From contig CAZMCU010000003.1 in the NCBI GenBank assembly GCA_964564915.1, forward strand, positions 2,676 through 66,675: DNA of 64,000 nt. The letters are read 5' to 3'. The notes below the pieces were generated by a model, which saw only the letters and a program-made list of their open reading frames with translations, was not told the origin of the DNA and did no database searches. This DNA comes from an uncultured Demequinaceae bacterium. Lineage in GTDB: Bacteria > Actinomycetota > Actinomycetes > Actinomycetales > Demequinaceae. Shown in pieces: positions 7,986 to 18,130 of this stretch; position 1 is the first letter of the stretch, and every line of letters begins with the position of its first letter. Position numbers and translations under genes: made by a program.

Positions 7986-8080
7986 CTTTGGCCCCCTGCC
8001 TTACGCCATCGAACGGTTGTGCCCTCCAGGCTAGTCGCCGAGGCAAACCTCGGCTAGCGGTGGTCCACGTCAGGAACCGC

Positions 8081-10252
<2,172 letters not shown>

Positions 10253-10311: not shown

Positions 10312-10512
10312 ATGCCGGACAACATTCCCTGGGCCGCCCTCGCGCCCGTGCTCGTGCTTCTAATGGCGTTTCTCGTGTATTGCTGGGTCGACATCGCGTA
10401 CCACCCCGTGCGGTACCTCCCCAAGTGGACATGGGCCCTCATCTGTTGCGTCATGATTCCGTTGGGGCCGATCGTCTACCTCGTCCTCGGCCGAGACCAC
10501 GGACAGGAGTAG
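10312..10512 (+). CDS. PLDc_N-type small two-TM membrane protein
   Basis: 66 aa with two hydrophobic helices flanking the conserved-looking RYLPKWTWALI...GPIVYLVLGR. GGAGG SD lies upstream. Confidence 0.6.
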   Translation: MPDNIPWAALAPVLVLLMAFLVYCWVDIAYHPVRYLPKWTWALICCVMIPLGPIVYLVLGRDHGQE

Positions 10513-10521
10513 TCCGCACCG

Positions 10522-11415
10522 GTGATCACGACCCACACCCTCACCAAGAGGTATGGTTCCACGACCGCTCTCGACGCGGTCGACCTCGTCGTACCCGACG
10601 GCTCGATCTATGGCCTCGTGGGGCCCAATGGGGCGGGGAAGACGACGCTCCTGGGGATTCTCGCCGGGCTACGCGCCCCAACGTCGGGCACCATCGCGAT
10701 CGACGCCGACTCTAGCGATGTGGCCGTCCTCTCCGATACCCCCCGCTTCGACCGCTGGCTCACGGGCTACGAGGTCGTGTCCCTCGCCCGAAACCTCACC
10801 GACCCCAACGGTTCGCCCGATCGCGTCGCGGAAGTCTTGGACGAGACGGGACTGCACAACGCCGCCAACCGACGGGTGGGCGGGTACTCGCGCGGGATGC
10901 TCCAACGGCTCGGTATCGCCGCGACGCTCGTCGGCAACCCTCGGCTCGTGCTCCTCGACGAACCCGCCTCCGCTCTCGACCCTCAGGGCCGCCGTGAAGT
11001 CCTCGACCTCATCGCCCGCCTGCGTGGCTCGGCTACCGTTCTGTTTTCCAGCCACATCCTCACGGACGTCCAGGAGGTGTGCGACACGGTCGGAATTTTA
11101 GGTAGCGGACGGCTGCTGTTCCAGGGACCGCTCCACCAGTTGCTCGTCGGTTCCGCCGTACCCCGCTACCACGTAAGACTCCGAAGCGATGCGACCCCGG
11201 TTGCCGTGGCGTTGCGCAAGGCACGTTGGGTGAAGGCCGTCGAGGTGTCGGACGGTGGGGGGCTCGTGATACAGGTGAAATCTCTCGCAGACGCCGAGAC
11301 CCACCTTCCGCAGGCGCTCGCCGACGCCAAGGCCGCGGTCGTATCGTTCGGGCCAGAGGAGGTCTCGCTGGAGCGGGCGTTCCTCGGTCTGACGGGTACG
11401 GGGGCAAAGCAATGA
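10522..11415 (+). CDS. ABC transporter ATP-binding protein (ABC-2/DrrA-like)
   Basis: Walker A GPNGAGKTT, signature YSRGMLQRLGIA, Walker B LVLLDEPASALD. GTG start. Confidence 0.9.
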   Translation: MITTHTLTKRYGSTTALDAVDLVVPDGSIYGLVGPNGAGKTTLLGILAGLRAPTSGTIAIDADSSDVAVLSDTPRFDRWLTGYEVVSLARNLTDPNGSPDRVAEVLDETGLHNAANRRVGGYSRGMLQRLGIAATLVGNPRLVLLDEPASALDPQGRREVLDLIARLRGSATVLFSSHILTDVQEVCDTVGILGSGRLLFQGPLHQLLVGSAVPRYHVRLRSDATPVAVALRKARWVKAVEVSDGGGLVIQVKSLADAETHLPQALADAKAAVVSFGPEEVSLERAFLGLTGTGAKQ

Positions 11416-12167
11416 CCCTGTGGCGGCTGGAGTGGACGCGACTCGTGCGCAGCAAGCGCTGGATCGCTCTCGTCGGCGTCTTCGTATTCTTCGGGCTGCT
11501 CGGCCCTCTCACGGCGCGATACCTCGCCCAGATCCTCCAGTTCGCTGGTACGGACTCGCAGGGCGTAACGATTACGTTCCCCGACCCCGTCCCCGCCGAC
11601 GGAATGGCCCAATACATCTCCAACGCGCTACAGATCGGCACCCTCGTCGTCGTCATCGTCGCCGCTGGTGCGCTCGCGTTCGACGCGATTCCCGAGATGG
11701 GGGTCTTCCTCCGTACCCGGGTTCCGAGCTTCTGGCGCATCCTCACCCCACGGCTCATCATCCCGTTCGTCGCTACGGCGGTGGCCTTTGTCGTCGGCAC
11801 GGTCGCGGCGTGGTACGAAACCTGGGTGCTCCTCGGCGCGCTCCCCGTTGGCGCCGTGCTGCTGGGGACCGCACTGGGCATTCTCTTCTTCGCCTTCATC
11901 ATCGCGGTCGTCGCCGCGGTTGCCCAGTGGGCGAGGAGCCTGCTGGCGACCGTCATGTGGTCGCTCGGCGTCTTTCTCGTCCTTCCGATCGTCGGGATCG
12001 TCGGCGTCCTCAAGCCCTGGATGCCCACGGTTTTAGGGAATGCCCTCACCGAACTCACGGCGGGGGCATCGGCGACCGGTTTTTGGCGGTCGACGGTCGT
12101 GGCCATCGTCGCGATTCCGGCCCTCATCTGGCTTGCCGAGCGGGGGGCACGACGCCGAGAGGCCTAG
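11412..12167 (+). CDS. ABC-2 type transporter permease
   Basis: The ATG at 11412 overlaps the ATPase stop (ATGA). About 6 hydrophobic segments. Function inferred from context. Confidence 0.7.
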   Translation: MTLWRLEWTRLVRSKRWIALVGVFVFFGLLGPLTARYLAQILQFAGTDSQGVTITFPDPVPADGMAQYISNALQIGTLVVVIVAAGALAFDAIPEMGVFLRTRVPSFWRILTPRLIIPFVATAVAFVVGTVAAWYETWVLLGALPVGAVLLGTALGILFFAFIIAVVAAVAQWARSLLATVMWSLGVFLVLPIVGIVGVLKPWMPTVLGNALTELTAGASATGFWRSTVVAIVAIPALIWLAERGARRREA

Positions 12168-12191: not shown

Positions 12192-12379
12192 CATTCACCG
12201 CTGGGGCACCACGGATTCTTCGATTTCGTGCTTCTGGCGTGCGTTTGACGGGTGGCGTGTGTCTCATTTCGCCTCTAATGTGACCCACCAATCACCGTTG
12301 CGCTTGCCCCCCCGCCAAGTCCGGGACAACGATGAAAGTGGAAATAAGAAACCGATCGACTGAGCGATCGGAGAGGACC

Positions 12380-13132
12380 ATGAATGAGACATCAGTCAAG
12401 GCCTGGACCGAGGAGTCCAGCGACAGCGAACTGATCGAGAGCGTCCGCGAAGGCGACTCCACGGCATTCAGCACTCTCTTCCACCGACACGTATCAGCGG
12501 CCCACCGCGTCGCGCTCGCGTACTCCCCTGTTCCCAGCGATGCCGATGACATCGTCTCGGAAGCCTTTGAACGGGTCCTCATCGCCCTTCAGAAGGGCCG
12601 CGGCCCCGACCACGCCTTCCGCGCGTACCTGTTCACCGTCGTGCGTCGGACCGGTGGCGAGTTCATTCGGCGCGCCAAGCAGGTGCGGCCGTACGAAGAC
12701 ATGGCCGAACACGACAAAGCCTTGGGCTTCTCCGACTCCAGTGGCGAGTCCACCCTGCATGAGTTCGAGCGGTCGACGATCGCGGACGCATTCCGATCCC
12801 TTCCCGAGCGCTGGCAGATGATCCTCTGGTACACCGAGATCGAGAAGATGACTCCGGCCGAGGTCGCGCCACGGCTTGGCCTTACCCCCAACGGGGCGGC
12901 TTCCCTCGGCTACCGAGCCCGCGAGGCCCTGCGCCAGGCCTACCTCCAACAGCACCTCGCCGAGGCGGAGGACCCCGCTTGCCTCTCGGTGTTCGACAAC
13001 CTCGCGGCCTACGTCCGAGGCTCCTTGACCCCCCGCGAGCGAGCGAAGGTGGCCGCCCACATCGCGACGTGCGCCAAGTGCGATTCCCTCATCTCCGAAC
13101 TTGAGGACGTCAACGGCGTCCTCCGAGGGTGA
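12380..13132 (+). CDS. ECF (sigma-70 family) sigma factor with C-terminal fused ZAS-type anti-sigma zinc motif
   Basis: Region 2-like DDIVSEAFERVLIAL...AYLFTVVRR and region 4 LPERWQMILWYTEIEKMTPAEVAPRLGLTPNGAASLGYRAREALR. These are followed by C-x25-H-x3-C-x2-C (Cys 12980, His 13058, Cys 13070, Cys 13079). I chose ATG 12380 because a GGAGAGGA SD precedes it; the track start at 12332 has no SD. Confidence 0.8.
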   Translation: MNETSVKAWTEESSDSELIESVREGDSTAFSTLFHRHVSAAHRVALAYSPVPSDADDIVSEAFERVLIALQKGRGPDHAFRAYLFTVVRRTGGEFIRRAKQVRPYEDMAEHDKALGFSDSSGESTLHEFERSTIADAFRSLPERWQMILWYTEIEKMTPAEVAPRLGLTPNGAASLGYRAREALRQAYLQQHLAEAEDPACLSVFDNLAAYVRGSLTPRERAKVAAHIATCAKCDSLISELEDVNGVLRG

Positions 13133-13240
13133 CGGCAAACGGCCCGGCGCGGGCGCGTCGGGCTCGATGGCGACACCAGGAGCACGCGGCTTCCTTACGC
13201 GGGCACCATCTACGTCGATCTGCCCCAAGAAGCGAGAAAG

Positions 13241-13257
13241 TCTAGACTTCCCCCATG
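13241..13257 (+). promoter_or_regulatory. TCTAGACT-N6-ATG: putative -10 (TAGACT) and leaderless start of hybrid kinase 1
   Basis: Identical 8-mer and identical spacing occur before kinase 2. No SD. Confidence 0.45.
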
Positions 13258-14859
13258 GGGACTTCAGCGAAAGACGGGGGACGCAAAGAAGGAGCGCGGC
13301 GGACTAGCGCGGGGAAACCGGCGGCACGCGTCAACTCCACGGCCTCCACGAATAGCAGCGCCACGGATGACAGCGCGGTCCTGGAAAGCCTCACCGACGG
13401 CGTCTTTGCGCTCGATCGCGAATTCCGATTCACCTACCTCAACGGCATCGCGGCGGCCTTCCTGGGGTGCACCCGCGACGAACTTCTGGGAACGTCTCTA
13501 CTGGACGAGTGCCCCGAGGTTCGGGACTCCGACCTCGGCCTCGCGCTCAGCCGCGTCCTCGAGACCGGGCTCGTCGAGCGGCTCCTGGCATGGTCCGGAC
13601 CTCAAACGAAATGGTTTGACGTCGGCGTGTGTGCTTCGCCCAACGGGCTCACGGTCATTCTCCACGACATCGCCGAGATCAAGTCCCTCTCGGAGCATTT
13701 CTCCGCCGCCCAGCGGCTGGAAATCCTGGGACAACTCACCGAAGGAATCGCGCACGAGTTCGGCAATCTCCTCACCGTCATCACGGGTGCCGTCGAATCC
13801 CTGGCCATCGAAACTCGCTTGGGTCCGACCGGCCGCGAAATGGTCGATGTCGTCAATGAAGCGACGACGCGCGGAGCCGACCTCATACGCCGCCTCCTGT
13901 CCTTCGCTGGGAGGCAGCCGCTCGCGCCTCAGCCCATCAACCTCACTCGACACGTCGGCGACCTTATCCCCCTCCTCCGGCGAACCCTGGGGGAAGCGAT
14001 CGAGGTGGCCTCGGACTTGACCCCCGGACTCCCCACCGTCAGCGTGGATCCCGGCCGACTCGAGGGCGCCATCCTCAACCTCGCGATCAACGCCCGCGAC
14101 GCGATGCCCAACGGCGGGATCCTCGAACTCGGGACGTCCCTGGCCGAGGTCGACCAAGAGGTGGAAGCCAGTCACGGCACCATCCAACCGGGAACCTACG
14201 CGGTCGTCACGGTCACCGATTCCGGCACGGGCGTCGCGCCGGAGAACCTGAGCCGGATGTTCGATCCGTTCTTCACCACCAAAAACGCCCATTGGGGTTC
14301 GGGGCTCGGTTTGGCAACCGTGTGGGGGTTTGCCCAGGAGTCCGGTGGATACCTCTCCGTTCACTCCGAACTTGGCCACGGCACGTCCATCCGCCTGTAC
14401 CTGCCCACCGTCCCCGTGGAGGTTGACCTGAATGCGGACAGTTGGATGGAGCCCACGCCCCAGTTCCGAGGCACCGGGCATGTGCTTCTCGTGGAGGACG
14501 ACGATCTCGTCCGCCGGTTCGCGACCGAGCAACTGATCGCGCGAGGGTTCAGCGTGACGGACGTCAACTCGGGACCGGAGGCGCTGAGGGCGCTCGACGG
14601 AATCGATAGGGTCGACCTGTTGTTCACCGACATCGTTCTGCCCAGCGGAACGACCGGTCGAGAATTGGCGGCGGAGGTGCAGGCGCAACGGCCCGGAACT
14701 CCTGTGCTCTACACCTCCGGCTACTCGGAGAGCGCCCTCCTGCACGACGGGAAACTCGATCCAGACGCGGTACTTCTCCCCAAGCCCTACTCCAGTCGGC
14801 AGCTGCTCGATGCCGTCCAGAGGCTTCTGTCCCCCGGTCCCCCCGCGTCGAGCCACTAG
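13255..14859 (+). CDS. cytoplasmic hybrid sensor histidine kinase (PAS-HisKA-HATPase-REC)
   Basis: PAS segment LESLTDGVFALDREFRFTYLN. H-box GIAHEFGNLLTVITG. N, G1 and G2 boxes NLAINARDAMP, DSGTGV, GSGLGL. Receiver domain VLLVEDDD...LLFTDIVLP...YTSGY...LPKPY. No TM segment. Confidence 0.9.
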   Translation: MGTSAKDGGRKEGARRTSAGKPAARVNSTASTNSSATDDSAVLESLTDGVFALDREFRFTYLNGIAAAFLGCTRDELLGTSLLDECPEVRDSDLGLALSRVLETGLVERLLAWSGPQTKWFDVGVCASPNGLTVILHDIAEIKSLSEHFSAAQRLEILGQLTEGIAHEFGNLLTVITGAVESLAIETRLGPTGREMVDVVNEATTRGADLIRRLLSFAGRQPLAPQPINLTRHVGDLIPLLRRTLGEAIEVASDLTPGLPTVSVDPGRLEGAILNLAINARDAMPNGGILELGTSLAEVDQEVEASHGTIQPGTYAVVTVTDSGTGVAPENLSRMFDPFFTTKNAHWGSGLGLATVWGFAQESGGYLSVHSELGHGTSIRLYLPTVPVEVDLNADSWMEPTPQFRGTGHVLLVEDDDLVRRFATEQLIARGFSVTDVNSGPEALRALDGIDRVDLLFTDIVLPSGTTGRELAAEVQAQRPGTPVLYTSGYSESALLHDGKLDPDAVLLPKPYSSRQLLDAVQRLLSPGPPASSH

Positions 14860-14925
14860 GCGGCGCGACCACCCGATACTCGGCTCCTCGTCCGTCTCTC
14901 CAACCTGCGCGAATCGACCGGCCAA

Positions 14926-14942
14926 TCTAGACTGGCGGAATG
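14926..14942 (+). promoter_or_regulatory. TCTAGACT-N6-ATG: putative -10 (TAGACT) and leaderless start of hybrid kinase 2
   Basis: Identical 8-mer and spacing to 13241-13257. Confidence 0.45.
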
Positions 14943-16931
14943 GGACCTCCGTCAGGGGGCAATGCGAAACCGGCGAAGAAGCGGGAATCGTCCCGATCGT
15001 CGAGCGGTGCTTCCGTGCCCGATGCGGCTCCCATCGTGCAACCCCGGAAGCCAGCGGATTTCGCGCGACTCGCCGAATCGATGCCCTTCATCGTGTGGAC
15101 GGCGACACCGGATGGCGCGGTCGACTACTTCAACTTGGCCTTCACCGAGTACACCGGACAATCTCCCGACTTGCTTCTGGCCGACGGGTGGCTCACGGTC
15201 CTCCATCCCGAGGATGTCCCGCTCGTCCTGGCCCGTTGGGAGTCTTCTCTCGCTTCGGGTAGTCCCTACGAGGTTGACTTCCGCATTCGGCGAGCGGACG
15301 GGGAGTATCGCTGGCACAGGGTGCAAGCCCGTGCGGAGACCAGCGAGAAGGGGAAGGTCGTCCGCTGGTGGGGAAGCGGAGTGGACATCCACGAACTCCA
15401 CCTCCTCCGTGCGCAGGCCGCCACCCTCGCGGAGGAACGCGAAGCCATCCTGGAAAGCATCGTCGACGGAGTGTTGACGTTGGATCGCGACTTCCGGTTC
15501 ACCTACCTCAATAGCAATGCCGAGAAGTTGACGGAGCGTACACGCGACGAACTCATTGGGAAGATCTTCTGGGATGCGTTTCCCGAGACTCGCGGCTCCG
15601 ACCTCCTCGAGATGTTCCAGCGCGTCGTCGAGACGAGGACGCCGGAGCGCATCGAAGACTACGGGGCACCGATGCGACGATGGTTCGAGGTAAGCGCTAA
15701 CCCGACACCGGACGGGCTCACCGTCTACCTTCGTGACATCACGCAAATGAAATCCCTCTCCGACCAACTTGCCATCGCGCAGCGGATGGAGGCGATGGGA
15801 CAACTGACCGGCGGTATCGCCCACGACTTCAACAACCTTCTGACGGTCATCATCGGAGGCACGGAGTCGCTTCTCGACGAGCCGAACCTGAGCGACCATT
15901 GCCGTGACACGCTCGATCTCTTCTCTCAGGCCACCTCGAAGGCGGCGGAACTGACCCATCGACTCCTCGCCTTCGCACGGAAGCAACCCCTGGCACCCCA
16001 GGCGATCAATGTCAGCCACTACGTCTCGGAGATCGTCCCCCTCCTTCGACGCACCCTGGGAGAGGGCGTTCGCATCGTGACCTCTCTCGCGGAGGACGTA
16101 CCCGCCGCCAACGTCGATCCGGGGCAATTCGAGAACGCCCTCTTGAACCTTGGCATCAACGCGAGGGACGCGATGCCGGAAGGAGGGACCCTCACCCTTG
16201 AGACCTATGCCGTGCACTTGGAGGAGCCCCAACCCGCCCTGCACCGGTTAGTCCCCCCGGGAAACTACGTCGCGACAACGGTGAGCGACACCGGGACGGG
16301 CATACCCGCGGAATTCCTGGGCAGGCTCTTCGACCCGTTCTTCACGACCAAGCCCGTCGGTCAGGGTTCTGGTCTGGGGTTGGCAATGGTGTACGGGTTC
16401 ATTCGGCAGTCGGAGGGTTACGTCGCGGTGTACTCGGAGGAAGGACGGGGCACGACCATCCGCCTCTACTTGCCCGTCGCATCAGACGAAACCATGACGT
16501 CGACGGTGGAACCGACCCAACCGACCCCTATCCATCAAGGAACGGGCCACATCCTGCTCGTCGAAGACGACGAACTCGTGCGCCACTTCACCGCCGCCCA
16601 TTTGATGGCACATGGGTACGAGGTGACCTCGGCTAGCTCGGGCCCCGAAGCGATCGCACTTCTCGATTCGATCGATCGCCTCGACCTCCTCCTCACCGAC
16701 GTGATCATGCCGGGCGGGATGACCGGCGCGCAACTCGCGGCGCGGATTCTTCAGCGGCGCCCCGGTACTCCCATCCTGTATTCGTCCGGATACACCGAAA
16801 ACGTCAACCTCGGCGACGGGCTTTCGGGCCGGGAGATCTCCTTCCTCTCCAAACCGTATTCGGGAACGCAGTTGATCGACGCCATCCAACGCCTCATCGC
16901 ACCACCGACCGCGGAGGAATCGGCAACGTGA
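14940..16931 (+). CDS. cytoplasmic hybrid sensor histidine kinase (PAS-PAS-HisKA-HATPase-REC), paralog of the preceding gene
   Basis: Two PAS segments (MPFIVWTATPDGAVDYFN...; ILESIVDGVLTLDRDFRFTYLN). H-box GIAHDFNNLLTVIIG. NLGINARDAMP, DTGTGI, GSGLGL. Receiver domain ILLVEDDE...LLLTDVIMP...YSSGY...LSKPY. Confidence 0.9.
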   Translation: MGPPSGGNAKPAKKRESSRSSSGASVPDAAPIVQPRKPADFARLAESMPFIVWTATPDGAVDYFNLAFTEYTGQSPDLLLADGWLTVLHPEDVPLVLARWESSLASGSPYEVDFRIRRADGEYRWHRVQARAETSEKGKVVRWWGSGVDIHELHLLRAQAATLAEEREAILESIVDGVLTLDRDFRFTYLNSNAEKLTERTRDELIGKIFWDAFPETRGSDLLEMFQRVVETRTPERIEDYGAPMRRWFEVSANPTPDGLTVYLRDITQMKSLSDQLAIAQRMEAMGQLTGGIAHDFNNLLTVIIGGTESLLDEPNLSDHCRDTLDLFSQATSKAAELTHRLLAFARKQPLAPQAINVSHYVSEIVPLLRRTLGEGVRIVTSLAEDVPAANVDPGQFENALLNLGINARDAMPEGGTLTLETYAVHLEEPQPALHRLVPPGNYVATTVSDTGTGIPAEFLGRLFDPFFTTKPVGQGSGLGLAMVYGFIRQSEGYVAVYSEEGRGTTIRLYLPVASDETMTSTVEPTQPTPIHQGTGHILLVEDDELVRHFTAAHLMAHGYEVTSASSGPEAIALLDSIDRLDLLLTDVIMPGGMTGAQLAARILQRRPGTPILYSSGYTENVNLGDGLSGREISFLSKPYSGTQLIDAIQRLIAPPTAEESAT

Positions 16932-18130
16932 AGGCCTCGGCCACGTCCGAGCGAGTCCTCATCATCGACGACGACCCGATGGTCGGGCGAACCACTCTCA
17001 CAACCGTCGAGACCCTCGGGCATGAGGGCCAATTGACGACCGACGCCCAGGACTTCATGGAGTTGTGCCAACGATGGCACCCCACCTTCGTCATCGTCGA
17101 TCTCGTCATGGAGAAAACCGACGGCCTGGAAATCCTTCGGATGCTCTCGGCGAAGGGGTGCACACCAACGGTCATCATCGCGAGCGGCCAAGGCAGCCGC
17201 GTCCTCAACGCGGCCAGACGCCTAGCGCAAGCCGAGAATCTCCCGTTCGGGGGGATCCTCTCCAAGCCGTACCGACGCTCCCAACTCGCGGAATTGCTGT
17301 CGAGGCCCCCCGCGCAACTCGGTGACGACTCCTCGACCGAGGTCACGGCTCCTCGTTCGTGGACGGACGCGGAGTTCGAAGAAGAGTTCCGCGACGCCCT
17401 CGGCAGCGGGGCGGTATCCGTCGTCTTCCAGCCCAAGGTCAGTTGCGCGGACGGCCGCGTGGTGGGGTACGAGGCCCTCGCCCGCTGGGCGCATCCCGAT
17501 CGGGGCAACATCGTTCCCGACGACTTCGTCCCGAAGGCCGAGAAGGCGGGCCTCGCTGGCCTGTTGAGCGACGTTGTCCTCCGCCAGTCGCTGGGGTGGT
17601 TCGGCGATCACCTCGAACGGAACGGAAAGCGCCTGTCCATCAACATCTCCGCAACGGAGGTTGCCGAGTCCGGTCTCGACGAACGCTTACTGCAGGCATG
17701 CCGAATCGCCGGAGTGCCAACCCAACAGGTGATCATCGAAGTGACGGAAACGAGCGCGATGGAGGACCCCGTCCTCTCCCTCCAGTTCTTAACGCGTCTT
17801 CGGCTTCAGGGTTTCGAGGTGTCCCTCGACGACTTTGGTACGGGGTACTCCTCGATGGTTCAGTTGGCGAAGATGCCGTTCAGCGAGATCAAGGTGGACC
17901 GCTCGTTCGTCAAGAACGCCGCTACATCCCAGGAGTCCGCGATCGTCATCCGCTCGATCATCGATTTGGGTCACGCCTTGGAGATGACGTGCACCGCCGA
18001 GGGCGTGGAAAGCGCGGCCGTTATGACCCTTCTCCACAAATGGGGGTGCGATCACGCGCAGGGGTACCACATCGCGCGTCCCATGACCACGGACGACCTT
18101 GGAATCTGGCTCGAAACCGCACCCGATTAG
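16928..18130 (+). CDS. response regulator with EAL domain (predicted c-di-GMP phosphodiesterase)
   Basis: REC domain VLIIDDDP...FVIVDLVM...ILSKPY. The EAL catalytic set is intact: YEALARW, RLSINIS, IIEVTET, DDFGTGYSS, IKVDRSF, AEGVE, QGY. The GTG at 16928 overlaps the kinase stop (GTGA). Confidence 0.9.
   Translation: MKASATSERVLIIDDDPMVGRTTLTTVETLGHEGQLTTDAQDFMELCQRWHPTFVIVDLVMEKTDGLEILRMLSAKGCTPTVIIASGQGSRVLNAARRLAQAENLPFGGILSKPYRRSQLAELLSRPPAQLGDDSSTEVTAPRSWTDAEFEEEFRDALGSGAVSVVFQPKVSCADGRVVGYEALARWAHPDRGNIVPDDFVPKAEKAGLAGLLSDVVLRQSLGWFGDHLERNGKRLSINISATEVAESGLDERLLQACRIAGVPTQQVIIEVTETSAMEDPVLSLQFLTRLRLQGFEVSLDDFGTGYSSMVQLAKMPFSEIKVDRSFVKNAATSQESAIVIRSIIDLGHALEMTCTAEGVESAAVMTLLHKWGCDHAQGYHIARPMTTDDLGIWLETAPD

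What the first reader, a model, noticed from the sequence alone, without database searches (positions are those of the whole stretch)
12380..13132. ECF sigma factor fused in frame to a complete but truncated ZAS anti-sigma module
After region 4 (…GYRAREALRQAYL) the same ORF continues into DPAC LSVFDNLAAYVRGSLTPRERAKVAA H IAT C AK C DSLISELEDV. This is C-x25-H-x3-C-x2-C, the same spacing I recall for the zinc ligands of RsrA-type ZAS anti-sigma factors. It also carries the LxAYVxGxL...HxxxCxxC consensus of zf-HC2 anti-sigma N-termini. The protein stops 17 aa later, so there is no fourth ASD helix, no TM segment and no sensor domain. Sigma and anti-sigma factors are normally separate, often overlapping genes. 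A covalent sigma-ZAS protein could act as a self-inhibited, thiol- or zinc-switchable one-component sigma factor. Alternatively it is the scar of a deletion that fused the two genes when the downstream kinase genes arrived.
Basis: partly seen in the sequence, partly recalled or inferred. Interest (0 to 1): 0.6.

Follow-up and report, generated by a model that had tools for sequence, protein, structure and literature searches.

The report
Soluble sigma factor carrying own anti-sigma
This is a real, conserved gene for a small transcription-initiation (ECF sigma) factor that has a zinc-finger anti-sigma module fused to its end; it is a membrane-less offshoot of a known actinobacterial family of membrane-anchored sigma/anti-sigma fusions. 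That makes it a moderately interesting natural variant, not a new kind of system.

Summary
Window 12380-13132 (+) encodes a 250-aa protein with Sigma70_r2, Sigma70_r4_2 and a C-terminal zf-HC2 module. Its C201-x25-H227-x3-C231-x2-C234 motif is conserved in all relatives examined. It is not a sequencing error: four independent metagenome assemblies match with 0 differences. It is not a deletion scar linked to the kinases either. Orthologs of 248-252 aa sit at the same ligA...mnmA locus in at least 10 other Demequinaceae genomes, with or without the kinase block. The 27 short sequences form one clade nested inside long paralogs that continue into a TM helix and a large extracytoplasmic part. Those long forms have the ECF48/52/53-type architecture. 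The short proteins stop 0-3 residues before that TM helix. Sigma and ZAS parts are both under purifying selection (dN/dS about 0.23 and 0.26). A composite promoter-like element occurs in this genome only upstream of the short gene and its two long paralogs. Best reading: a soluble sigma that can no longer be controlled by membrane proteolysis. It is probably self-masked on sigma-4 by its own three-helix ZAS bundle and released by a cytoplasmic cue. That mechanism is inferred, not shown. Verdict: new variant of a known kind.

The parts
12280..12333 (+). Conserved composite promoter-like element: GTGACCCAC (12280-12288), CTTGC (12303-12307), AACGAT (12328-12333)
   Evidence: It aligns upstream of all 11 short orthologs and upstream of 8 long paralogs in the genus. 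The pattern GTGACnnAC-N14-16-sTTG-N20-24-AYnAT occurs exactly 3 times in the own genome, each time upstream of one of the three paralogs. It gave 20 hits in 11 genomes of the genus against 0 for the reversed control, and 18 of the 20 lie upstream of short or long sigma-ZAS genes.
12370..12376 (+). Shine-Dalgarno GGAGAGG, 3 nt before ATG 12380
   Evidence: Sequence. GGAG/GGTGAG is conserved at the same place in the orthologs. The longer ORF start at 12332 lies inside the conserved promoter element and is not supported by the ortholog N-termini.
12380..13132 (+). CDS of the 250-aa soluble ECF sigma-ZAS protein, including the TGA stop at 13130-13132
   Evidence: Orthologs have 248-252 aa. Four independent assemblies agree with the sequence.
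12476..12679 (+). Sigma region 2 (residues 33-100)
   Evidence: Pfam PF04542, E 3.4e-12. The invariant residues F80, R81, Y83, L84 and R89 are shared with the long forms.
12683..12772 (+). Disordered sigma2-sigma4 linker (residues about 102-131)
   Evidence: AlphaFold pLDDT is below 50 for 102-109 and 111-131. This is the least conserved region.
12779..12931 (+). Sigma region 4 (residues 134-184)
   Evidence: Pfam PF08281, E 7.8e-6. The invariant LPERW motif and the R179-A180-R181 block are shared with the long forms.
12974..13126 (+). Three-helix ZAS bundle (helices 199-213, 218-230, 232-249) with ligands C201, H227, C231 and C234
   Evidence: Pfam zf-HC2 at 201-234. AlphaFold helices have pLDDT 82-91. 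The region aligns with RslA, DdvA and RsiW. dN/dS is 0.26 among the short orthologs.

Best explanation
SHOWN. The gene encodes a soluble group-IV (ECF) sigma factor whose sigma-4 helix runs, after about 8 residues, into a three-helix CHCC zinc-finger anti-sigma bundle (class I ASD without helix 4), and then stops. It arose once, in the ancestor of one genus of Demequinaceae. The origin was duplication of a membrane-anchored sigma-ZAS-TM-sensor gene (ECF48/52/53-type) followed by loss of everything from the TM helix onward. It has since been kept at the ligA...mnmA locus under purifying selection on both the sigma and the ZAS parts. It keeps the family's sigma-2 and sigma-4 signature residues and the same upstream promoter-like element as the long paralogs.

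INFERRED. Because it has no membrane anchor, it cannot be controlled by regulated intramembrane proteolysis, the mechanism proposed for the long forms. Most likely the ZAS bundle folds back on sigma-4 of the same chain. That would mask -35 recognition and beta-flap binding and hold the protein in a compact, inactive state. It would be released by a cytoplasmic event, either oxidation or zinc loss at the CHCC site or proteolytic removal of the ZAS tail. Because it shares the paralogs' promoter element, it would be switched on together with, or by, the membrane-sensing long forms. It would thus add a cytoplasmic checkpoint or amplifier to that circuit.
For: Domain content and motif. Sequence integrity. 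Conserved length and stop position: 248-252 aa against long forms that continue '...ELEDVNRGxR|xIIAPLVLG' into a TM helix. Synteny at ligA...mnmA in 10 genus genomes plus two divergent metagenome members. Single origin nested in the long forms: 94/90 and 97/87 support. Purifying selection: dN/dS 0.23 for sigma and 0.26 for ZAS. Rarity: 1 of 150 family representatives (the query's own cluster) and 1 of 80 genome loci (the genus ortholog in G008) lack the TM. Shared sigma residues: only one class-specific position, 228. Shared promoter element. Compact model: the sigma part superposes at 8.5-14 A rmsd on sigma chains from anti-sigma-bound complexes, against 25-27 A on RNAP-bound sigmas. Literature: the three-helix ASD bundle binds sigma-4 and helix 4 binds sigma-2 (PMC7406223). 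ECF48/52/53 are fused ZAS+TM proteins with proposed proteolytic activation, and the sigma-only truncation of SCO4117 is active on its own promoter (PMC5826349, PMC8999054).
Against: No experiment or coordinate-level model shows the ZAS contacting sigma-4 in cis. pTM is only 0.44, and neither PAE nor coordinates were available. The linker between sigma-4 and ASD helix I is very short, which might not allow the canonical docking geometry. Helix 4, which carries most of the sigma-2-blocking contacts in class I ASDs, is absent, so inhibition could be weak. A CHCC site does not by itself imply redox sensing; RsiW has the motif but binds SigW independently of zinc (PMC7406223). The C-terminal tails are not conserved (…LRG, …LCA, …MLR), so no degron is evident. 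Short forms evolve faster than long forms (dN/dS 0.23-0.26 against 0.07-0.13), which fits relaxed constraint as well as new function. No RNA data were found. The promoter element can also be read as a housekeeping-type TTGnnn-N17-18-nACGAT promoter with an upstream regulator site.
Confidence: 0.6

Rival explanations
1. Transcription-controlled amplifier. The ZAS module no longer inhibits and serves only as a structural or stabilising zinc ribbon. The short protein is then a constitutively competent sigma whose activity is set only by its synthesis. Synthesis would be driven from the shared family promoter once a membrane-bound long paralog has been activated.
For: The short gene and the long paralogs share a promoter-like element found nowhere else in the genome. 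[quoted passage not shown] Helix 4, the sigma-2-blocking element, is absent (PMC7406223). Constraint is relaxed relative to the long forms. In SCO4117 the sigma-only truncation activates its own promoter (PMC5826349).
Against: All four zinc ligands and the helix pattern are strictly kept over divergence down to about 55% identity. ZAS dN/dS (0.26) is as low as that of the sigma part. A purely vestigial tail would be expected to decay or be lost in some of the 27 lineages, and none has lost it.
Confidence: 0.2
2. Trans-acting modulator of the long paralogs. The short protein acts on the membrane-anchored family members. Its free ZAS bundle could capture their released sigma domains, or its sigma domain could compete for their promoters or for core RNAP. 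Either way it would give negative feedback.
For: Genus genomes with the short form generally also carry at least one long paralog, and the own genome has two. The promoter element is shared. ZAS and sigma residues are nearly identical between the classes, so cross-recognition is plausible.
Against: A cis-fused partner has a large effective-concentration advantage over any trans target. No evidence for hetero-complexes could be obtained here. The short form keeps all residues expected for a working sigma, which a pure decoy would not need.
Confidence: 0.12
3. Recent accident. The gene is the scar of a deletion that fused or truncated a sigma/anti-sigma locus when the downstream kinase genes arrived, that is, a decaying pseudogene.
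For: The long paralogs show what was lost. The kinase block is indeed an insertion/deletion polymorphism at this locus.
Against: The same truncated length occurs in orthologs without any kinase genes, next to mnmA or a DUF2157 gene. The short forms have one origin followed by diversification into 27 sequences at 55-96% identity. Selection is purifying. No TM-coding remnant lies downstream of the stop.
Confidence: 0.03
4. Assembly or sequencing frameshift that hides a longer membrane protein.
For: None beyond the fact that the window comes from a metagenome-assembled genome.
Against: Four independent assemblies match exactly. A 96%-identical cluster also has 250 aa. Orthologs at 59-69% identity stop at the same place.
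Confidence: 0.01

Closest known systems
ECF48/ECF52/ECF53-type actinobacterial ECF sigma factors with a fused zinc-finger anti-sigma domain, TM helix(es) and an extracytoplasmic extension (model: SCO4117 of Streptomyces coelicolor, ECF52)
   Same: Actinobacterial. An ECF core is followed directly by a zf-HC2/ZAS module in one polypeptide. The window protein is phylogenetically nested among such long proteins of its own genus. It shares their conserved residues and their upstream promoter-like element.
   Different: It has no TM helix, no Gly/Ala- or Pro/Thr-rich spacer and no extracytoplasmic domain. It therefore cannot be anchored, cannot sense outside the cell and cannot be released by intramembrane proteolysis. 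Which numbered group the long relatives belong to was not determined. Their sensor part hits DUF11/DUF3344, not the NPCBM-type module reported for SCO4117 (PMC5826349).
Soluble ZAS anti-sigma factors acting in trans (RsrA/SigR, RshA/SigH, ChrR/RpoE, RslA/SigL)
   Same: Cytoplasmic. CHCC or HHCC ligands with the same C-x25-H-x3-C-x2-C spacing (spacing recalled for RsrA, not checked here). A three-helix bundle. The region aligns with RslA with HxxxCxxC in register.
   Different: Here the ZAS is covalently attached to its presumed target and lacks helix 4 and any C-terminal sensor domain. Redox or zinc responsiveness is untested.
ECF sigma factors regulated by soluble C-terminal extensions ('one-component' ECFs: ECF41 SnoaL-like, ECF42 TPR, ECF238 CorE-type Cys-rich tail, ECF287/288 Cys-rich tails; some ECF270 members listed as carrying regulatory extensions)
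   Same: A cytoplasmic sigma with a built-in C-terminal regulatory module and no separate anti-sigma gene. The metal- or redox-responsive Cys chemistry proposed for ECF238/287/288 is similar (PMC7826278, PMC8999054).
   Different: The extension is a bona fide zf-HC2 ASD bundle of about 55 aa derived from a membrane anti-sigma. It is not a SnoaL or TPR domain and not a roughly 20-aa Cys-rich tail, and there is no CxC in the linker. Whether any ECF270 fusion is comparably TM-less could not be checked here.

Membership tests
ECF (group IV) sigma-70 factors | [quoted passage not shown] | tested here: met
   PF04542 at 33-100 and PF08281 at 134-184. TIGR02937 (sigma70-ECF) scores 72.9 bits against a 42.9 cut-off. 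The best solved relatives are ECF sigmas: RpoE, AlgU and SigE.
Class I anti-sigma domain, zinc-binding subtype (ZAS, Pfam zf-HC2) | H-x3-C-x2-C motif plus an upstream Cys/His ligand on helix I | tested here: met
   C201-x25-H227-x3-C231-x2-C234. zf-HC2 scores 33.8 bits against a 22.2 cut-off. The ligands are invariant or at least 90% conserved. The region aligns with RslA, DdvA and RsiW.
Class I anti-sigma domain, zinc-binding subtype (ZAS, Pfam zf-HC2) | N-terminal three-helix bundle | tested here: met
   AlphaFold helices 199-213, 218-230 and 232-249 with pLDDT 82-91.
Class I anti-sigma domain, zinc-binding subtype (ZAS, Pfam zf-HC2) | Fourth helix that binds sigma-2 regions 2.1/2.2 (PMC7406223) | tested here: not met
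   The protein ends at residue 250, right after helix III. In the long relatives helix III runs directly into the TM segment.
Class I anti-sigma domain, zinc-binding subtype (ZAS, Pfam zf-HC2) | Binds zinc and sequesters its cognate sigma | not testable with these tools
   Only indirect evidence: a compact AlphaFold model (pTM 0.44) whose sigma part resembles anti-sigma-bound rather than RNAP-bound sigmas.
ECF48/52/53-type fused sigma-ZAS-TM sigma factors | ECF core fused in frame to a zf-HC2 domain, in Actinobacteria | tested here: met
   Relatives are in Demequinaceae, Cellulomonadaceae, Promicromonosporaceae, Pseudonocardiaceae and Nocardioidaceae.
ECF48/52/53-type fused sigma-ZAS-TM sigma factors | One or more TM helices after the zinc finger | tested here: not met
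   There is no hydrophobic segment, and the stop lies 0-3 residues before the position of the relatives' TM.
ECF48/52/53-type fused sigma-ZAS-TM sigma factors | Long Pro-rich extracytoplasmic extension with a carbohydrate-binding or other sensor domain | tested here: not met
   Absent here. It is present in the own-genome paralogs (904 and 595 aa; DUF11) and in the relatives.
ECF48/52/53-type fused sigma-ZAS-TM sigma factors | Phylogenetic placement of the sigma core within the group | tested here: inconclusive
   The protein is nested within long fused forms of the same genus. No named ECF52/53/48 reference sequence (e.g. SCO4117) was available, so the numbered group was not assigned.
RsrA-type thiol-disulfide switch | Redox-triggered zinc release and sigma release; regulon of thiol-homeostasis genes | not tested
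   Only the ligand spacing matches. A strict motif search found no targets beyond the three paralog genes.
CorE-like / ECF238 Cys-rich-tail sigma factors | Cys-rich tail of about 20 aa plus a CxC motif in the sigma2-sigma4 linker | tested here: not met
   The linker (residues 101-131) has no Cys, and the extension is a 55-aa zf-HC2 bundle.

The most novel reading that the evidence does not exclude
A true single-polypeptide sigma/anti-sigma switch. The cis-fused CHCC bundle clamps sigma-4 until cytoplasmic thiol oxidation or zinc depletion opens it. The protein would then be a self-contained redox- or zinc-sensing sigma factor that evolved from a membrane signal transducer by losing its anchor. 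It would be wired through a shared promoter into the circuit of its membrane-bound paralogs.
Probability: 0.3. Interest if true: 0.65.

Novelty: new variant of a known kind. Interest (0 to 1): 0.42.

Why it matters
Fused sigma-ZAS-TM sigma factors (ECF48/52/53) are widespread in Actinobacteria: this family has more than 2,400 representatives at E<=1e-30. Their mechanism is still essentially untested. It is not known whether the on-board ZAS inhibits in cis, or what remains after the membrane cut. This lineage offers a natural, selection-maintained minimal version that corresponds to the cytoplasmic half alone. It is small, soluble and easy to express. It could therefore show directly whether a three-helix ZAS without helix 4 can silence its own sigma, and what releases it. 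It also shows how an extracytoplasmic sensor can be converted into a cytoplasmic regulator by a single truncation after duplication.

Tried and rejected
1. Frameshift or assembly error: rejected (ortholog lengths).
2. Remnant of TM-coding sequence or a conserved read-through frame downstream of the stop: none seen. In the 249-aa subclade the convergent mnmA gene starts within about 10 nt.
3. Obligatory link to the kinases or to the ABC-2 operon: rejected. Both are absent in some orthologous loci.
4. Independent short forms elsewhere: the apparent ones (P0091, P0094, P0111) are partial or sit on very short contigs and fall among long forms. None appeared among 80 genome loci or 150 family representatives.
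5. Regulon search with the strict promoter motif: only the three paralog genes. Two looser hits (C5:24984, C30:12565) lie inside coding sequence and were dismissed as chance.
6. Assigning the numbered ECF group through SCO4117: not possible. No Streptomyces sequence was among the 80 loci returned, and the classification supplement is not held.
7. Coordinate-level check of cis docking: the structure tool returns no coordinates or PAE.
8. Expression evidence: no RNA runs hold the gene.
9. Class-specific residue changes between short and long forms that could hint at a new function: only position 228 (L versus V).

Full report
**1. Observation**

The + strand ORF ending at TGA 13130-13132 is real. 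Orthologous N-termini and a GGAGAGG ribosome-binding site at 12370-12376 place the start at ATG 12380, giving 250 aa. The longer ATG 12332 lies inside a conserved promoter-like element and is not supported.

Pfam finds three domains in one frame, all above gathering thresholds:
- Sigma70_r2 at residues 33-100
- Sigma70_r4_2 at residues 134-184
- zf-HC2 at residues 201-234 (E 3.6e-8)

NCBIfam assigns only the generic sigma70-ECF superfamily. The motif is C201-x25-H227-x3-C231-x2-C234, and 16 residues follow the last Cys. The ZAS part aligns with the solved zinc anti-sigmas RslA (3hug_B), DdvA and RsiW, with HxxxCxxC in register. AlphaFold2, run with a 99-sequence alignment, predicts three helices at 199-213, 218-230 and 232-249 with pLDDT 82-91. 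It also predicts a disordered sigma2-sigma4 linker.

**2. Not an artefact**

The window belongs to a 1.67-Mb, 97.7%-complete genome of an uncultured Demequinaceae bacterium. The exact sequence is present in many salt-marsh metagenome runs. Contigs assembled independently from four samples cover 12300-13300 with no mismatch or gap.

**3. What it is related to**

A search of 5.8 billion proteins gave 417 relatives of two kinds.
- Short proteins of 248-252 aa, at 55-96% identity.
- Long proteins that are co-linear up to '...ELEDVNRGxR' and then continue 'xIIAPLVLG...'. This continuation is a hydrophobic TM segment, followed by a Gly/Ala-rich stretch, a second hydrophobic segment, a Pro/Thr-rich spacer and a large extracytoplasmic part. 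The open frames are 450-1,580 aa, and DUF11/DUF3344 hits occur in the outer part.

This long architecture matches what the literature describes for the actinobacterial groups ECF48, ECF52 and ECF53: an ECF core, a zinc finger that is likely a ZAS, TM helices and an extension. Activation by proteolysis has been proposed. The only studied member is SCO4117 (PMC5826349, PMC8999054).

All four ligands are conserved in both kinds. The short proteins end 0-3 residues before the TM helix of the long ones. The window genome itself carries two long paralogs in tandem on another contig.

**4. Evolution**

Whole-genome searches of 40 relatives found the short gene in all ten other genomes of the same genus, and only there. 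The other genera of the family have long forms only.

The locus is orthologous. The short gene always lies between ligA and mnmA. In four genomes, including this one, it is followed by the PAS-HisKA-HATPase-REC kinase gene(s) and, where the contig extends far enough, a REC-EAL gene. In seven others it directly abuts mnmA. In a divergent metagenomic member (55% identity) a DUF2157 gene intervenes and the upstream ABC-2 operon is missing.

Maximum-likelihood trees put the short sequences in one clade nested within the long forms of the genus: 11 sequences and 27, with support 94/90 and 97/87. This indicates a single duplication followed by truncation.

| Form | dN/dS, sigma part | dN/dS, ZAS part |
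|---|---|---|
| Short orthologs | 0.23 | 0.26 |
| Long paralogs | 0.07 | 0.13 |

Synonymous sites are near saturation, so these values are rough. The ZAS tail is as constrained as the sigma core, but the whole protein evolves faster than its long relatives. Only one position (228, L versus V) separates the two classes. [quoted passage not shown]

Outside this clade the TM-less form is essentially absent. Of 80 genome loci across actinomycete families, only the genus ortholog in G008 lacks the TM. Of the 150 best 50%-identity representatives, in a family with 2,414 representatives at E<=1e-30, only the query's own cluster is that short.

**5. Regulatory DNA**

The region upstream of all 11 short orthologs carries a conserved series of elements: TGTGAC(nn)AC, then (C/G)TTG 14-16 nt on, then nAC(G/C)AT 20-24 nt further. 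The long paralogs of the genus carry the same series.

The composite pattern occurs exactly three times in this genome, upstream of the short gene (window 12280-12333) and of the two long paralogs. Across the 11 genomes of the genus it gave 20 hits against 0 for the reversed control, and 18 of those lie in front of short or long sigma-ZAS genes.

It can be read in two ways:
- as an ECF-type promoter, with -35 GTGACnnAC and -10 sTTGC, which would imply auto- or cross-regulation;
- as a housekeeping-type TTGnnn-N17-18-nACGAT promoter with an upstream regulator site.

Either way the duplicate kept the family's transcriptional control. No further targets were found with the strict motif.

**6. Mechanism**

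Established knowledge: in class I anti-sigma domains the three-helix bundle binds sigma-4 and helix 4 binds sigma-2 (PMC7406223). Soluble ZAS proteins release their sigma on oxidation or zinc loss. Membrane-bound ones are removed by regulated proteolysis (PMC8999054).

The short protein has no anchor, so the membrane route is closed. The strict retention of the CHCC site and helices argues that the module still does something. The most economical inference is cis masking of sigma-4, relieved by a cytoplasmic cue (oxidation or zinc loss) or by proteolytic trimming.

One weak structural indication supports this. The model's sigma part superposes at 8.5-14 A rmsd on sigma chains taken from anti-sigma-bound, compact complexes (SigW/RsiW, CnrH/CnrY, SigK/RskA, RpoE/RseA). 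It superposes at 25-27 A on RNAP-bound, extended ECF sigmas. However, pTM is 0.44 and no coordinates or PAE could be inspected.

Several points count against the inference:
- the linker to helix I is very short;
- helix 4 is absent;
- CHCC sites are not always sensory (RsiW);
- the C-terminal tails are not conserved.

Two rivals remain open. In one, the ZAS is merely structural and the protein is an amplifier controlled at the level of transcription. In the other, the protein modulates the long paralogs in trans.

**7. Comparison and novelty**

The protein works like a 'one-component' ECF with a soluble regulatory extension. Its sequence is that of the cytoplasmic half of a fused sigma-ZAS-TM sigma factor. 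It meets the ECF and ZAS sequence criteria. It fails the TM and sensor criteria of ECF48/52/53 and the helix-4 criterion of a full class I ASD. Its numbered ECF group could not be assigned.

I found no description of a TM-less derivative of this family in the searchable literature. A review does list some ECF270 members as carrying regulatory extensions, and I could not examine those.

Verdict: a genuine, conserved, lineage-specific variant of a known kind. It is of moderate interest, chiefly as a tractable minimal model for fused sigma/anti-sigma proteins.

Noticed in passing
G000 contig C36 (locus L023:6146-6972 and 8025-8851): The two tandem long sigma-ZAS-TM paralogs of the window's genome share an exactly identical 827-nt 5' module covering sigma, ZAS and the first TM. 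Their extracytoplasmic parts are unrelated (904 versus 595 aa). This could be recent gene conversion or sensor swapping, or an assembly effect.
   Followed up: partly
L015-L018 and L020-L022, about 60-75 nt upstream of the short gene's start (249-aa subclade): A perfect 12-bp palindrome GAAAGCGCTTTC overlaps the TTGAAA -35-like box. It is found only in the subclade that lacks the kinase block (one mismatch in G004). It looks like an operator for an unknown repressor.
   Followed up: no
window 13255-18130, compared with L013-L022: The block of two PAS-HisKA-HATPase-REC hybrid kinases plus REC-EAL is a presence/absence polymorphism between the short sigma gene and mnmA. It is present in G000, G002, G008 and G010 and absent in seven other genomes of the genus.
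   Followed up: partly
G010:C194:42-359 and G008:C5:107408-107506 (L019, L014): Fragments of a second sigma-ZAS gene (one with an internal TGA) lie just upstream of an extra hybrid-kinase copy on the far side of the ABC-2 operon. This suggests that a [sigma-ZAS + kinase] unit was once duplicated and its sigma copy then decayed.
   Followed up: partly
window 13241-13257 and the regions downstream of the short gene in G002, G008 and G010: The TAGACT-like box 6-7 nt before the kinase ATG (TCTAGACT here; CCTAGACTGG / CCTAAACTGG in the orthologs) is conserved. This fits a leaderless kinase mRNA.
   Followed up: partly
window 10312-12167; L127:3932-5807: A small PLDc_N membrane protein heads the ABC ATPase and ABC-2 permease operon upstream of the sigma gene. 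The trio recurs in a divergent metagenomic ortholog locus but is missing in others (G007, and the P0034 contig).
   Followed up: partly
G009:C4:84384-85125: The long paralog of genome G009 is matched as two overlapping pieces (query 3-172 and 163-249) in different frames. This suggests a frameshift or an assembly error there.
   Followed up: no
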